A DNA stretch of 46,178 bases from Candidatus Micrarchaeota archaeon (lineage in GTDB: Archaea > Micrarchaeota > Micrarchaeia > Anstonellales > Bilamarchaeaceae). The position numbers are program-made. The DNA is taken from assembly GCA_043816005.1 (NCBI GenBank), contig JBDRIM010000005.1, positions 1 to 46,178 on the forward strand. Reading direction: 5' to 3'. Below are positions 30,001 to 33,000 of this stretch, in pieces. The first letter of the stretch is position 1. The number at the start of each line of letters is the position of its first letter.

Positions 30001-33000
30001 CAGTTTATATATATGCAGAAAAAATAACACGAAAACAAAATGGGATAATCTCGCTTGCCGGTCCAGTACTCAATATTTTTCTTTTGTTATTTTTCATATT
30101 AATGCAAAAATTTGCACCCATAACTCAGTATTATAGCTTTCTTACACCATGGGGTAACAGTTTCAGCGGATTTGGGATAATGTTTGGTGCACTTAGTGTC
30201 TGGCAATTTGGAGCTGCCATGAACCTTATACTTGCACTTTTCAATATGATCCCGGCCTTTCCCCTTGACGGCAGCAAGGTTTTTGCATGGAATAAATTGA
30301 TATGGATTGGGTTTGTGTTTGTTCTGTTAATTTTAGGAAGTATATTGATTCAACCAGGGATTGTAATAGGGTGGGGGATCATGCTGTTGATATTGTTGAT
30401 TCTTTCAAAATTATTCTTCCAGGTGAAAAAATGAGAGGAGCCGAAGCAACCGTCACTAAAACAAAAATTATTAGTCGTCCTGCCGTATTAAAGAGTAGAA
30501 TTCCAAAAAATTATCGTGTTAAAGAACTTGACCGCAAGCTCAGAATTGAAAGAACAAGAAATGAAGCCAAACTTTTGAATAAAGCAAAGTTAGCAGGTGT
30601 AAAATGTCCAACTGTTCTTCAAGTTGACGAATTTAACATTACAATGTCTTATGTTGATGGTAAGCGACCGAAAATGGATAAAAAAGAAGCTAGAGAAACT
30701 GGAATTTTGCTTGCTAAGCTTCATATGGCAGACATCATTCATGGTGATTATACTCCTGCCAATTTGATTAAAACCAAGAATGATGAGTTGATAGTAATTG
30801 ATTTTGGTTTGGGTTATATTTCTAAAGATATTGAGGATAAAGCAGTTGATGTTTTCACTATGCTTCGATCGTTTGGAAATAACAAAATCGCAAACGAATC
30901 TTTTTTGTCAGCTTATCACGAATATGACAGGGCTGAAGAGGTATTAGTACGAGTTAAAGCGGTTGAAAAAAGAGTAAGGTATGCAGTTTAATTACACTAG
31001 AAGATATTATAAACATTCAAAACATTTACCTAACTAATGGTAGTTGATAGCACTGTTGCGATCATAGCGTTAATTCTGTATGCTCTGGTTGTTATATTCG
31101 GCATAATGATAGTAGTAGTAATAGTTTTAGCAGTCTTAATGCTTATTTTTGGTTTGTTGATTAGAGGACTTACTGAGGATCGGATTATAGATTTAATCGA
31201 CGTAGATACAGTGTCGGCAGGAAAGGTAAGTATAACTATTGGAGCTGTAAAGACCGAAGAAAACCAGATAACACTGGAGGTATATAATAAACAAAAGATA
31301 CAAATACCAAAAAAAGATATAATTGGAGTTGTTGAATGGAAGAGGTTAGGGCCATCTCTAGTGTGGATTTATTACCAAAAACAGAACAGGCTATGTGTAG
31401 TCGCTTTTACTAGTCCCGGTAATTCAAAGAGAATGCATGCACTCACAGAAAAATCCATAATTGTCCCATTTGGATCAAATTATGGAATAAACACGTGGTG
31501 GGATCTGATGGGAGGAGGCATATCTCATGTTTATTTTGGAAACCAACCAGAGAAATTAATAGAGAATAAAACTACAGCATTTACAAAATCCCCATATATA
31601 CAACTAGCAGATGTTAGATATCTAAGATTGGATGAATTCAGAGGGATGAAATTCGAAGAAATAGAAAGAGATAAGGTTAAGGTATTGAAGCTTCCATTTT
31701 ACTTTTCCTCAGCAGGGTTTTTTAGTGGGATAGATATATATGACAACGCAGTGGTAATCAAAAGTGGTGTATACAGATTTATTATTCCAAAAGAAAAAAT
31801 CAAATCATTTTGGAAAGTTAGTGGAGGTTACAGTATAATACATAGTGCAAAAAATGCACCTGAGAGGATAGATGTAGTGGGAAATGCAGAGAGCATAGCT
31901 GATAAGCTAATAGAACTAGGATATAAAATCGAAGGAAAAATGTAAATGGTAAGGCAATTATCAGAGTCTTTTTTATCAAGCCTTTTCTTAGACCATTTCA
32001 TCCATATTAAAAACATTATTTAACAAATAAAAAATGGGCTAGATGGGAATTAGGGGCTCCCGCGCCGTAAATCCTCTTAGACGGATCGAATGCCCGGGGC
32101 GTTTTGTCAGATATTCATGCCCATTACCTTAAGCGTTGACGTCCTGCCTTATATGGCGGGATAATATGTGAACCGGGTCAGATCGGAAGAAGCAGCCCTA
32201 AACCTATTGTGCCGTGCTTGTAAGATACAGGATTGAGTGGATGGTGATGGCTCCTTGCATATTTGCCATGGCAAACCGGGAAGCCCACTTTTGTTTTGCT
32301 AATTTTTCTCGCTCCGCTCGAAAAATGCAAAACACACAGATGGCAGATAGTCCTTAGGAAAGGCTGGTGATCTTGAAAGCGCAGCTTTCAAGCGGAAGCC
32401 CATGTTCTTTTTTTATGAAAAACAATAGAGAACCACGTTCTCTGTACCCCATTGTTCTGAACAATGTAATGGACCAAAAACGGACTAGTTAATTTTCGCT
32501 TCACAAAAATGGGCTGTTTTGAACGGATTGCCGTTCAAACTGAAGCCCACTTTTCATTAGATTTTAATTATGGAATTAGTCATGTACAGCTGTCGTAGAT
32601 TGTACTGGGGTATTTTTTGAAGGTTGAATAGATGTATACAACTTTTGTGGCTGGTTATACTCAGGTACAGTAGTTGTAAATGGTACTGGAATAATTCTTG
32701 AAGGCGGATTAGATGTATGTTTTTGTGGTTGGTTAGATAAGAGTATAGCAGCTGTTATAGTCGCAATAAAAGTTCCTGATAATACAGCTCCAACACCAGC
32801 CAAAATATATTTATCTTTTCTACTAAGTGGAGTAGAAACTGGTTCTGGAGGCCAACAATCACATGCAAGAAACGCATCAAGCATTTCCCTCATACTTTGG
32901 AAACGTTTATTCGGATCACTGTCTAAAGCAGTCACGACTACATTTTCTAAATCAGGATGAACTTTTAGAGAAGGAAATCGCCTAGATATTGGAACTACAC

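What a model noticed while it worked through the whole genome (the two positions that open the first line are those of the whole stretch)
32034..32288. SRP RNA without helix 6 and no SRP19 gene: a two-component, bacterial-style SRP in an archaeon (phylum-wide in Micrarcha [...]
The signal-recognition-particle RNA of this archaeon (255 nt, + strand) has the Alu-domain hairpins, a long helix 5 and helix 8, but no helix 6, the SRP19-binding arm that all described archaeal 7S RNAs carry; it fits Rfam's Bacteria_large_SRP model end to end and not Archaea_SRP. In line with this no SRP19 gene is detectable in this genome or in 200 other Micrarchaeota genomes, so the particle is reduced to SRP54 + RNA.
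Evidence so far: cmscan: RF01854 Bacteria_large_SRP 61.7 bits, model 1-256/256; RF01857 Archaea_SRP no match at E<=10 in the whole genome. MFE fold = one unbranched rod from helix 5 to the GGAA-capped helix 8. The same RNA, matched over model 1-256 and mostly 253-275 nt long, in 96 of 121 Micrarchaeota genomes, 70 over the family cut-off; alignment of 22 of them: 67 consensus pairs, 58 with compensatory changes, no branch for helix 6. SRP19 (PF01922): 0 hits in own six-frame genome at E<=1; 0 of 152 high-quality and 1 weak (17 bits, inside an 1159-aa ORF) of 201 Micrarchaeota genomes, while 3 control archaea ring over cut-off. SRP54 (g00911, intein-bearing) and FtsY (g00985) are present. Control for the meth [...]
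(Added by a program. Inside this text positions count along the whole contig: contig position 1 is position 1 of the stretch shown here. "Call 12" and the like, gene names such as g00115 and contig names such as C1 are that model's own, and its searches are not shown. The text may have been shortened before it was handed on; [...] marks where a part breaks off. The agent that wrote the report below was given it as the finding of a first reader that could run no searches.)

Follow-up and report, generated by a model that had tools for sequence, protein, structure and literature searches.

The report
Archaeal SRP RNA without helix 6
This is the real gene for the RNA core of the protein-targeting particle (SRP) of a tiny DPANN archaeon, in a trimmed form that lacks the arm that normally holds the protein SRP19, and since no gene for that protein can be found either, the particle seems to be reduced to one protein plus RNA, as in bacteria.

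Summary
Window 32034-32288 (+) is a genuine SRP RNA gene: Alu-domain hairpins, long helix 5, GGAA-capped helix 8, and no room for helix 6. The unbranched fold is carried by strong covariation across 31 relatives. No SRP19 gene is detectable in the own genome (Pfam profile, a custom unfiltered profile, synteny) or over cut-off in 0 of 401 genomes of the phylum, while the SRP54 M domain is found in 196 of 201.

(1) 'Fits the bacterial, not the archaeal Rfam model' is a filter artefact: RF01857 matches the same RNA in 131 of 150 relatives, with the helix-6 positions deleted. (2) RNA and SRP54 are archaeal by descent; only the architecture is bacterial-like. (3) The trait is wider than the phylum: a second DPANN phylum (NCBI label Nanoarchaeota) gave 0 of 301 genomes with SRP19 and mostly 263-278-nt RNAs. 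Also, some Micrarchaeota families carry an extra hairpin 3' of helix 8, so not all are unbranched.

This scan reported the same trait at least eight times before on other DPANN DNA. My paper searches found it nowhere in print. Verdict: a real, reduced variant of a known machine; moderately high interest.

The parts
32034..32288 (+). SRP (7S) RNA gene, 255 nt, without helix 6
   Evidence: RF01854 61.7 bits, model 1-256. Covariation in 31 sequences. Metatranscriptome contigs of 4 runs lie only inside 32052-32286.
32004..32011 (+). TATA-like box (TATTAAAA), centred about 26 nt before the first base of the RNA
   Evidence: Read by eye in the sequence. The spacing fits archaeal promoters (recalled knowledge); not tested.
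32034..32039 (+). 5' strand of the terminal helix; pairs with 32283-32288
   Evidence: Alignment columns 1-6 with 323-328; 6 of 6 pairs have compensatory change.
32045..32061 (+). Alu-domain hairpin, helix 3; its loop GGGG pairs with the helix-4 loop
   Evidence: CM alignment. Loop-loop pairs are columns 21-25 with 45-49, 100% paired, 3 of 5 with compensatory change.
32065..32084 (+). Alu-domain hairpin, helix 4
   Evidence: CM alignment; alignment A1.
32092..32169 (+). 5' strand of helix 5; it runs into helix 8 with at most 5 unpaired columns, so there is no room for helix 6
   Evidence: Helices 4-11; structure line.
32170..32203 (+). Helix 8, the SRP54 M-domain binding site (GAAC asymmetric loop, CAG...AGCAG symmetric loop)
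   Evidence: Invariant A138 A139 G144 A147 G148 A154 A158 G159 C160 A161 C163 in 31 sequences. The binding role is inferred from solved archaeal complexes listed in PMC2905702.
32185..32188 (+). GGAA tetraloop of helix 8, free of any helix 6 / SRP19 clamp
   Evidence: Sequence; alignment.
32204..32282 (+). 3' strand of helix 5
32289..32298 (+). T-rich tract (TTTTGTTTTG) directly after the RNA; likely terminator
   Evidence: Sequence. The contig of run X1 ends at 32286. The terminator role is inferred.

Best explanation
The locus encodes the SRP RNA of a Micrarchaeota-type DPANN archaeon. The RNA keeps the Alu domain, helix 5 and helix 8, but the helix 6 hairpin is missing. In canonical archaeal and eukaryotic SRP RNA that hairpin lies just 5' of helix 8 and is the main binding site of SRP19. 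The lineage has no detectable SRP19 gene.

The working particle is therefore most likely SRP54 bound directly through its M domain to the helix-8 loops of a roughly 255-nt RNA, acting with FtsY as receptor. That is the composition of a Bacillus-type bacterial SRP, reached by reduction of an archaeal SRP and not by transfer from bacteria.

Shown: the RNA, its covarying unbranched fold, the deletion of the helix-6 positions, the presence of SRP54 and FtsY, the failure to detect SRP19, and the archaeal descent of SRP54.

Inferred: that SRP54 binds without help, that the free GGAA loop can act on the receptor as in bacteria (recalled from E. coli work), and that no other protein takes SRP19's place.
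For: RNA identity and fold. 60 of 65 pairs carry compensatory change; covariation score 0.698 against 0.239 in shuffles, 0 of 500 reaching it.

Helix 6 is absent. Aligned to RF01857, relatives show 40 helix-6 model positions deleted (G005), whereas a Methanobrevibacter control aligns helix 6 in full. None of the 51 phylum RNAs I inspected has a hairpin at the helix-6 position (31, 20 more).

SRP19 in the own genome: 0 matches at E<=10. A custom HMM of 123 SRP19 sequences, run with filters off against 12,047 six-frame ORFs of 40 aa or more, gave a best E of 0.16. In two crenarchaeal MAGs SRP19 follows the S8e gene. In the own genome S8e is followed by a 380-aa ORF and no small ORF.

SRP19 in the phylum: 0 of 401 genomes over the cut-off, 0 of 188 among high-quality ones. 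Of the weak hits I looked up, 5 of 6 are other known families: RIO kinase, Spt4, PadR, TFIIE-alpha, RtcB.

Single-contig assemblies: G016, G033, G038, G042, G100 and G108 have the RNA and SRP54 but no PF01922 match at E<=1.

Same-pipeline controls: the SRP54 M domain is found in 196 of 201 genomes, 149 of 152 high-quality ones. SRP19 is found in 3 of 3 non-DPANN archaeal MAGs at 63-79 bits.

Archaeal descent: SRP54 tree; tRNA-Ser(GCU) synteny.

Prior plausibility: SRP19 is dispensable in Haloferax volcanii, and archaeal SRP54 binds the RNA without it (passages of PMC2905702 and PMC6098224).
Against: Absence rests on sequence profiles only. The PF01922 pipeline failed to ring in Sulfolobus acidocaldarius, one of the 4 archaea among the 14 control genomes, so it has false negatives.

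The own genome is 86% complete.

Three genomes of the second DPANN phylum carry a 35-37-nt insert at or near the helix-6 slot yet give no SRP19 hit at E<=10. Either the insert is not helix 6, or SRP19 can be missed.

Some relatives have an extra hairpin 3' of helix 8 that could bind an unknown protein.

The own MFE is not better than shuffles.

The RNA-library evidence consists of assembled contigs, which show neither transcript ends nor strand.

There is no biochemical evidence.
Confidence: 0.8

Rival explanations
1. SRP19 is present but has diverged beyond recognition, and binds the RNA somewhere other than helix 6.
For: PF01922 missed one control archaeon that has SRP19 according to the literature. 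DPANN proteins evolve fast (general knowledge). One weak-hit ORF (L007, 148 aa) has no Pfam family.
Against: Its main RNA site is gone in all 51 inspected RNAs. 0 of 401 plus 0 of 301 genomes are over the cut-off. The unfiltered custom HMM gave a best E of 0.16. There is no small ORF at the crenarchaeal S8e position. The same search finds crenarchaeal and methanogen SRP19 at 63-79 bits.
Confidence: 0.07
2. Another, unrelated protein or an RNA element has taken over the role of SRP19 and helix 6. One candidate is the extra hairpin 3' of helix 8 seen in some families.
For: 17 of the 20 longest phylum RNAs carry a hairpin 3' of helix 8, and its 4 basal pairs show compensatory change in 2 to 8 of 17 sequences.
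Against: The own RNA and the 30 relatives of A1 lack this hairpin. Its loops vary and are not GNAR, by eye. The unknown ORF upstream of the RNA is not conserved beside it in relatives. Bacteria and the Haloferax SRP19 deletion show that no replacement is needed (PMC6098224 passages).
Confidence: 0.1
3. The RNA is bacterial: a contaminating contig, or a bacterial SRP RNA gained by transfer.
For: The best Rfam hit is the bacterial family, and RF01857 gave nothing in the own genome. Contamination is estimated at 5.48%.
Against: RF01857 matches the same RNA in 131 of 150 relatives, including 5 of the same genus at 59-95.6 bits. Of 12 genomes I compared by eye, RF01857 scores higher in 7 and RF01854 in 5. 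The RNA recurs across 20 families of the phylum. SRP54 is archaeal. The tRNA-Ser(GCU) synteny is shared with methanogens and Crenarchaeota. The window holds an intron-bearing tRNA.
Confidence: 0.02
4. Same molecule, different history: helix 6 and SRP19 were never present in this lineage. DPANN would keep the ancestral two-part SRP, and the SRP19 arm arose later in other archaea.
For: Two large DPANN phyla lack both parts. Bacillus-type bacterial RNAs share the Alu plus helix 5 plus helix 8 plan (RF01854 fits end to end).
Against: Not tested here: I could not reach other DPANN phyla. It depends on a DPANN-first root of Archaea, which is disputed (abstracts of PMC7414124 and PMC13473441 in search listings). 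Loss fits the general genome reduction of the group.
Confidence: 0.2

Closest known systems
Canonical archaeal SRP (7S) RNA, Rfam RF01857 (controls here: Methanobrevibacter L101/L086, Sulfolobales L105, Aciduliprofundum L164)
   Same: Terminal helix, Alu-domain helices 3 and 4 with loop-loop pairing, long helix 5, helix 8 with a GGAA loop and the SRP54-binding loops. An archaeal SRP54 partner. tRNA-Ser(GCU) downstream in relatives.
   Different: The roughly 40-nt helix 6 is deleted, giving 255 nt against 306-325 nt in the controls. There is no SRP19 gene. The distal stem of helix 8 is one pair shorter than the model consensus. The UGUAA turn between helices 3 and 4 is not kept in the own RNA (by eye).
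Bacillus-type large bacterial SRP RNA, Rfam RF01854
   Same: The same set of helices (Alu domain, helix 5, helix 8, no helix 6), and one SRP54/Ffh protein as the only universal partner. The own RNA passes this family's gathering score end to end.
   Different: The host is an archaeon and its SRP54 is archaeal. The likeness comes from reduction, not kinship. The Alu-binding protein HBsu of Bacillus (recalled) was not looked for.
Haloferax volcanii SRP19 deletion (Yurist et al. 2007; seen only as cited and described in PMC6098224 and PMC2905702)
   Same: An archaeal SRP that works without SRP19.
   Different: That is a laboratory deletion in which helix 6 is still present. Here both the protein and its RNA arm are missing in nature, across hundreds of species.
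Permuted, circularised SRP RNA of Thermoproteus (PMC4731332, passages read)
   Same: Another lineage-wide departure from the standard archaeal SRP RNA gene.
   Different: That RNA keeps helix 6 and SRP19; only the gene order is permuted.

Membership tests
SRP RNA (Rfam clan CL00003) | Helix 8 with the conserved SRP54-binding loops and a GNRA-type tetraloop | tested here: met
   GAAC...CAG...GGAA...AGCAG, invariant in 31 sequences; CM match.
SRP RNA (Rfam clan CL00003) | A partner SRP54 with an M domain, and the receptor FtsY, encoded in the genome | tested here: met
   G000:C61 has PF00448 and PF02978; G000:C64 is FtsY by TIGR00064, 285.5 bits against a cut-off of 260.7.
Archaea_SRP (RF01857) | Score at or above the gathering score of 96.5 bits | tested here: not met
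   Own genome: no match reported. Any same-clan match in the 431-nt scan scored below 61.7 bits. Relatives: 27 of 150 over the cut-off.
Archaea_SRP (RF01857) | Helix 6 hairpin with a GNAR loop, 5' of helix 8 | tested here: not met
   At most 5 unpaired columns lie between helix 5 and helix 8. 40 model positions are deleted in relative G005.
Archaea_SRP (RF01857) | Alu domain with helices 3 and 4 and loop-loop pairing; 5'/3' terminal helix | tested here: met
   Helices 1-3; CM alignment.
Archaea_SRP (RF01857) | Archaeal host and descent | tested here: met
   SRP54 tree, 100/100; tRNA-Ser synteny in relatives.
Bacteria_large_SRP (RF01854) | Score at or above the gathering score of 60 bits, over the full model | tested here: met
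   61.7 bits, model 1-256.
Bacteria_large_SRP (RF01854) | Bacterial host, with Ffh as partner | tested here: not met
   SRP54 groups with archaea, apart from 4 bacterial Ffh.
Archaeal SRP holo-particle (SRP RNA + SRP19 + SRP54) | SRP19 gene (PF01922) | tested here: not met
   An undetectably divergent gene cannot be excluded.
Archaeal SRP holo-particle (SRP RNA + SRP19 + SRP54) | SRP54 binds the RNA and the particle targets proteins | not testable with these tools
   Needs biochemistry.

The most novel reading that the evidence does not exclude
The lack of helix 6 and SRP19 is not a loss but the original state. DPANN archaea would keep the two-part SRP (SRP54 plus an Alu/helix 5/helix 8 RNA) that Bacillus-type bacteria also have. 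SRP19 with its RNA arm would then be a later invention shared only by the remaining archaea and eukaryotes. That would make it a rare, discrete character bearing on where the archaeal tree is rooted.
Probability: 0.18. Interest if true: 0.85.

Novelty: new variant of a known kind. Interest (0 to 1): 0.6.

Why it matters
Reviews state that archaeal SRP is made of RNA, SRP19 and SRP54. One says that SRP19 was found in all archaeal subgroups and coexists with helix 6 (PMC2905702, passages); that review did not cover DPANN.

Here two very large archaeal phyla appear to run on SRP54 plus a shortened RNA. This gives four things:
- a natural, lineage-wide counterpart of the Haloferax SRP19 deletion, which bears on what SRP19 is for;
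- a minimal archaeal SRP with a free helix-8 tetraloop, for structural and kinetic comparison with the bacterial particle;
- a discrete presence/absence character that can be mapped on the disputed DPANN phylogeny;
- a practical note for annotation: these RNAs fall under the archaeal gathering score (27 of 150 pass) or get labelled bacterial.

Cultured Micrarchaeota co-cultures exist (titles and abstracts seen in the listings), so it can be tested.

Tried and rejected
- RF01857 in the own genome gave nothing. I do not count this as evidence. Only 1 first-look candidate was scored, the small-region scan dropped 2 lower-scoring same-clan matches whose names are not shown, and same-genus RNAs match RF01857.
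- NCBIfam could not tell archaeal SRP54 from bacterial Ffh (ffh 340.7 against SRP54_euk 312.2 bits, both under their cut-offs because of the intein). I used a tree instead.
- The homologous-protein search with 3 SRP19 seeds returned almost only Methanobrevibacter-like and crenarchaeal proteins among the 120 listed of 624. It gave no view of DPANN, but it did feed the custom HMM.
It gave handles for one other DPANN phylum only, so Altiarchaeota, Aenigmatarchaeota, Nanohaloarchaeota, Iainarchaeota and Undinarchaeota were not searched.
- Reading the hairpin 3' of helix 8 as a transposed helix 6: rejected for now, because its loops vary and are not GNAR (by eye).
- Reading the 45-nt inserts in helix 8 (G074, G139) as bulge-helix-bulge introns: I could not draw a canonical motif by eye on the folds. 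Left open.
- The 302-aa unknown ORF upstream as a new SRP protein: it has no homologue beside the RNA in 38 relatives' loci.
- Metatranscriptome contigs: cover lies only inside the gene, in 4 runs of 4 studies. This is a weak hint of expression. The uncovered flanks prove nothing.
- The sigma-70 promoter scan does not apply to archaea.
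Full report
WHAT IS THERE. cmscan of the window gives one SRP hit: RF01854 Bacteria_large_SRP, 32034-32288 (+), 61.7 bits against a gathering score of 60, model 1-256 of 256. 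The whole-genome search gives the same place and no second copy. The sequence shows a TATA-like TATTAAAA centred about 26 nt upstream and a T-rich tract directly after base 32288. I read these by eye as an archaeal promoter and terminator. The flanking genes have nothing to do with SRP: an M50 peptidase, a RIO-type kinase and an unknown 302-aa membrane ORF upstream; a Ser/Thr kinase, a YbaK-type editing domain and a DUF922 protein on the other strand downstream.

FOLD. The MFE structure is a rod that ends in the GGAA-capped helix 8. Its energy is no better than that of shuffles (z -0.43), so it proves nothing alone. I aligned the own RNA with the 30 best-scoring RNAs of the phylum.
- RNAalifold gives 65 pairs, 60 with compensatory changes, and no branch between helix 5 and helix 8.
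- On that structure 90.9% of cells pair, against 66.7% in shuffles.
- The covariation score is 0.698 against 0.239 (0 of 500 shuffles reach it) and 0.13-0.20 when partners are slid by 1-3 columns.
- The 5' strand runs from helix 5 into helix 8 with at most five unpaired columns.

In a canonical archaeon (Methanobrevibacter, L101) the roughly 40-nt helix 6 sits exactly there and aligns in full to RF01857.

THE RFAM ARGUMENT NEEDS CORRECTING. In a scan of 431 nt, two lower-scoring matches of the same clan were suppressed; their names are not shown. More to the point, RF01857 matches the same RNAs in 131 of 150 genomes of the phylum at E<=1, with 27 over its cut-off. That includes five of the own genus at 59-95.6 bits. 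Of 12 genomes whose two scores I compared by eye, the archaeal model was higher in 7 and the bacterial model in 5. In the alignment of relative G005 to RF01857, 40 helix-6 positions are simply deleted. So the RNA is an archaeal-type SRP RNA minus helix 6. It is not a bacterial RNA.

SPREAD AND VARIANTS IN THE PHYLUM. RF01854 finds the RNA in 126 of 150 genomes (79 over the cut-off), always over model 1-256 apart from one fragment. Of the 131 RF01857 matches, 20 are 288 nt or longer. I read 19 of them plus one of 279 nt; the twentieth (G074) was already in the first alignment.
- None has a hairpin at the helix-6 position.
- Seventeen, from families f12, f13 and f14, carry extra sequence 3' of helix 8. 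It folds into a short hairpin followed by a conserved GCGTRCAA. Its four basal pairs show changes on both sides in 3, 2, 5 and 8 of 17 sequences.
- The archaeal model copes with this by putting the true helix 8 into its helix-6 slot.
- Two (G074, G139) have a roughly 45-nt insert inside the GGAA loop.
- One (G017) has inserts in the Alu domain and helix 5.

So 'no helix 6' held in 51 of 51 RNAs inspected, but 'unbranched' is not universal.

SRP19.
- Own genome: PF01922 gives nothing at E<=10 in six frames.
- Own genome, second profile: an HMM I built from 123 SRP19 sequences (3 taken from control genomes, 120), run with all filters off against 12,047 stop-to-stop ORFs of 40 aa or more, gave a best E of 0.16.
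- Synteny: in the Sulfolobales and Desulfurococcaceae MAGs, SRP19 lies directly after the S8e gene. In the own genome S8e (G000:C60:14577-14963, minus strand) is followed by a 380-aa ORF (no family search run on it) and no small ORF.
- Phylum: 0 of 401 genomes over the cut-off and 0 of 188 high-quality ones. Twenty genomes have weak matches (best 17.3 bits).
- Of the ten weak-hit loci fetched, I ran six ORFs through Pfam. Five are a RIO kinase, Spt4, PadR, TFIIE-alpha and RtcB; one has no family.
- Six single-contig assemblies have the RNA and SRP54 but no PF01922 match at E<=1.

CONTROLS. With the same pipeline the SRP54 M domain is found in 196 of 201 genomes, and in 149 of 152 high-quality ones. 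SRP19 is found at 63.2, 65.9 and 78.8 bits in 3 of 3 non-DPANN archaeal MAGs. Against this, the built-in control never rang for Sulfolobus acidocaldarius, one of the 4 archaea among the 14 control genomes. The method therefore has false negatives.

BEYOND THE PHYLUM. Two MAGs that NCBI labels Nanoarchaeota have 265-nt SRP RNAs and no SRP19 hit.
- In their phylum, 0 of 301 genomes pass the SRP19 cut-off.
- RF01857 finds the RNA in 114 of 121 genomes.
- 109 of the 112 full-length matches are 263-278 nt.
- In the two short ones I looked at, 38 and 40 helix-6 positions are deleted.
- Three RNAs of 309-320 nt carry a 35-37-nt insert that the model places in the helix-6 slot. By eye it interrupts the 5' strand of helix 8. 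Those three genomes give no SRP19 match at E<=10.

Non-DPANN controls have RNAs of 306-325 nt at 137-211 bits. I could not reach other DPANN phyla.

DESCENT. In a tree of the part of SRP54 after the P-loop (10 sequences), the own protein, a Micrarchaeota relative and the Nanoarchaeota-labelled MAG sit with Methanobrevibacter and two Crenarchaeota. They are split 100/100 from four bacterial Ffh. tRNA-Ser(GCU) follows the SRP RNA in three Micrarchaeota, a Desulfurococcaceae MAG and two Methanobrevibacter. It does not do so in the own window. This speaks for vertical descent and against transfer or contamination.

EXPRESSION. Contigs of four metatranscriptome runs from four studies lie only inside the gene: 32114-32286 at 100% identity, and 32070-32202, 32065-32230 and 32052-32246 at 95-99% identity. 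Contigs show neither ends nor strand, and DNA can be present in such libraries, so this is a weak hint only.

HOW IT PROBABLY WORKS. SRP54 carries the usual GTPase and M domains and a LAGLIDADG intein in its P-loop. FtsY passes its NCBIfam cut-off. The helix-8 nucleotides that solved complexes show in contact with the M domain are invariant. I infer that SRP54 binds helix 8 unaided. Reviews report this for archaeal SRP54 in vitro, and SRP19 is dispensable in Haloferax (passages of PMC2905702 and PMC6098224). Without helix 6 and SRP19 the GGAA loop is unclamped, as in bacteria, where it helps receptor docking (recalled, not checked here). The retained Alu domain suggests that the contact with the ribosome's factor site is kept.

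IN PRINT? Six full-text searches and one on Nanoarchaeum found no paper that reports DPANN archaea lacking SRP19 or helix 6.
- The 2010 review says that SRP19 was found in all archaeal subgroups and coexists with helix 6. A word search of that review found no mention of Nanoarchaeota (PMC2905702, passages).
- Genome papers on a Micrarchaeon, on nanohaloarchaea and on Woesearchaeota list SRP54/Ffh, FtsY and in one case the SRP RNA, without comment on SRP19 (passages of PMC5498576, PMC10266531, PMC11606122).
- For PMC7203096 only the first 300,000 characters are held, and SRP19 does not occur in them.
- Supplementary gene tables of DPANN papers were not read and may hold the absence silently.

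This scan has noted the same trait at least eight times on other DPANN genomes. I treated those notes as leads.

CAVEATS. The tallies include unpublished genome G029, and one search also includes G198. No sequence of theirs was fetched or aligned. All counts are samples of the phyla: 'not found in those searched', not 'absent'.

Noticed in passing
L019:1501-1801 (-) = G074, and L067 (-) = G139: Two Micrarchaeota SRP RNAs carry a roughly 45-nt insertion inside the helix-8 GGAA loop. Removing it restores the phylum consensus exactly. Its 3' end repeats the upstream 5' strand of helix 8. It could be an intron: PMC4731332 proposes that SRP RNAs with simple BHB introns once existed. I could not draw a canonical bulge-helix-bulge.
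   Followed up: partly
L195, L196, L197 (G447, G420, G492; second DPANN phylum): SRP RNAs of 309-320 nt with a 35-37-nt hairpin insert just 5' of the helix-8 core and an unusual UUGA/CUGA helix-8 loop. Rfam places the insert in the helix-6 slot. There is no SRP19 hit at E<=10 in these genomes.
   Followed up: partly
L050-L066, L069 (families f12, f13, f14 of the phylum): An extra short hairpin 3' of helix 8, followed by a conserved GCGTRCAA. This branch is on the opposite strand from where helix 6 would be. Its function is unknown.
   Followed up: partly
L116, L044, L045, L163, L086, L101; window 32289-32480: tRNA-Ser(GCU) lies 35-80 nt downstream of the SRP RNA in Micrarchaeota, Desulfurococcaceae and Methanobrevibacter, an old synteny. 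It is missing in the own window, where 32340-32400 instead holds a hairpin-forming stretch shared with same-genus genome G118.
   Followed up: partly
G000:C61:6091-9252 (L200:292-3453): SRP54 is interrupted in its P-loop (GSGK|...|TT) by an intein with a LAGLIDADG endonuclease. SRP54 ORFs of 1039-1056 aa in G142, G195 and G032 suggest the same intein elsewhere in the phylum.
   Followed up: partly
L191, L192 (Desulfurococcaceae, Sulfolobales MAGs): SRP19 lies directly downstream of ribosomal protein S8e. In the Sulfolobales MAG, SRP54 is about 3 kb away on the same contig.
   Followed up: no
Control panel of the genome search: PF01922 never rings in the control genome Sulfolobus acidocaldarius, although a Sulfolobales MAG scores 63 bits. 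This is a false negative of the first-look filter that users of this control should know about.
   Followed up: no
window 23279-23392 (+): A tRNA match of 114 nt with a 33-nt insert after the anticodon region and a long extra arm.
   Followed up: no
L068 = G017: An SRP RNA of 312 nt with a duplicated-looking stretch in the Alu domain and a roughly 35-nt hairpin inserted in the 5' strand of helix 5.
   Followed up: no
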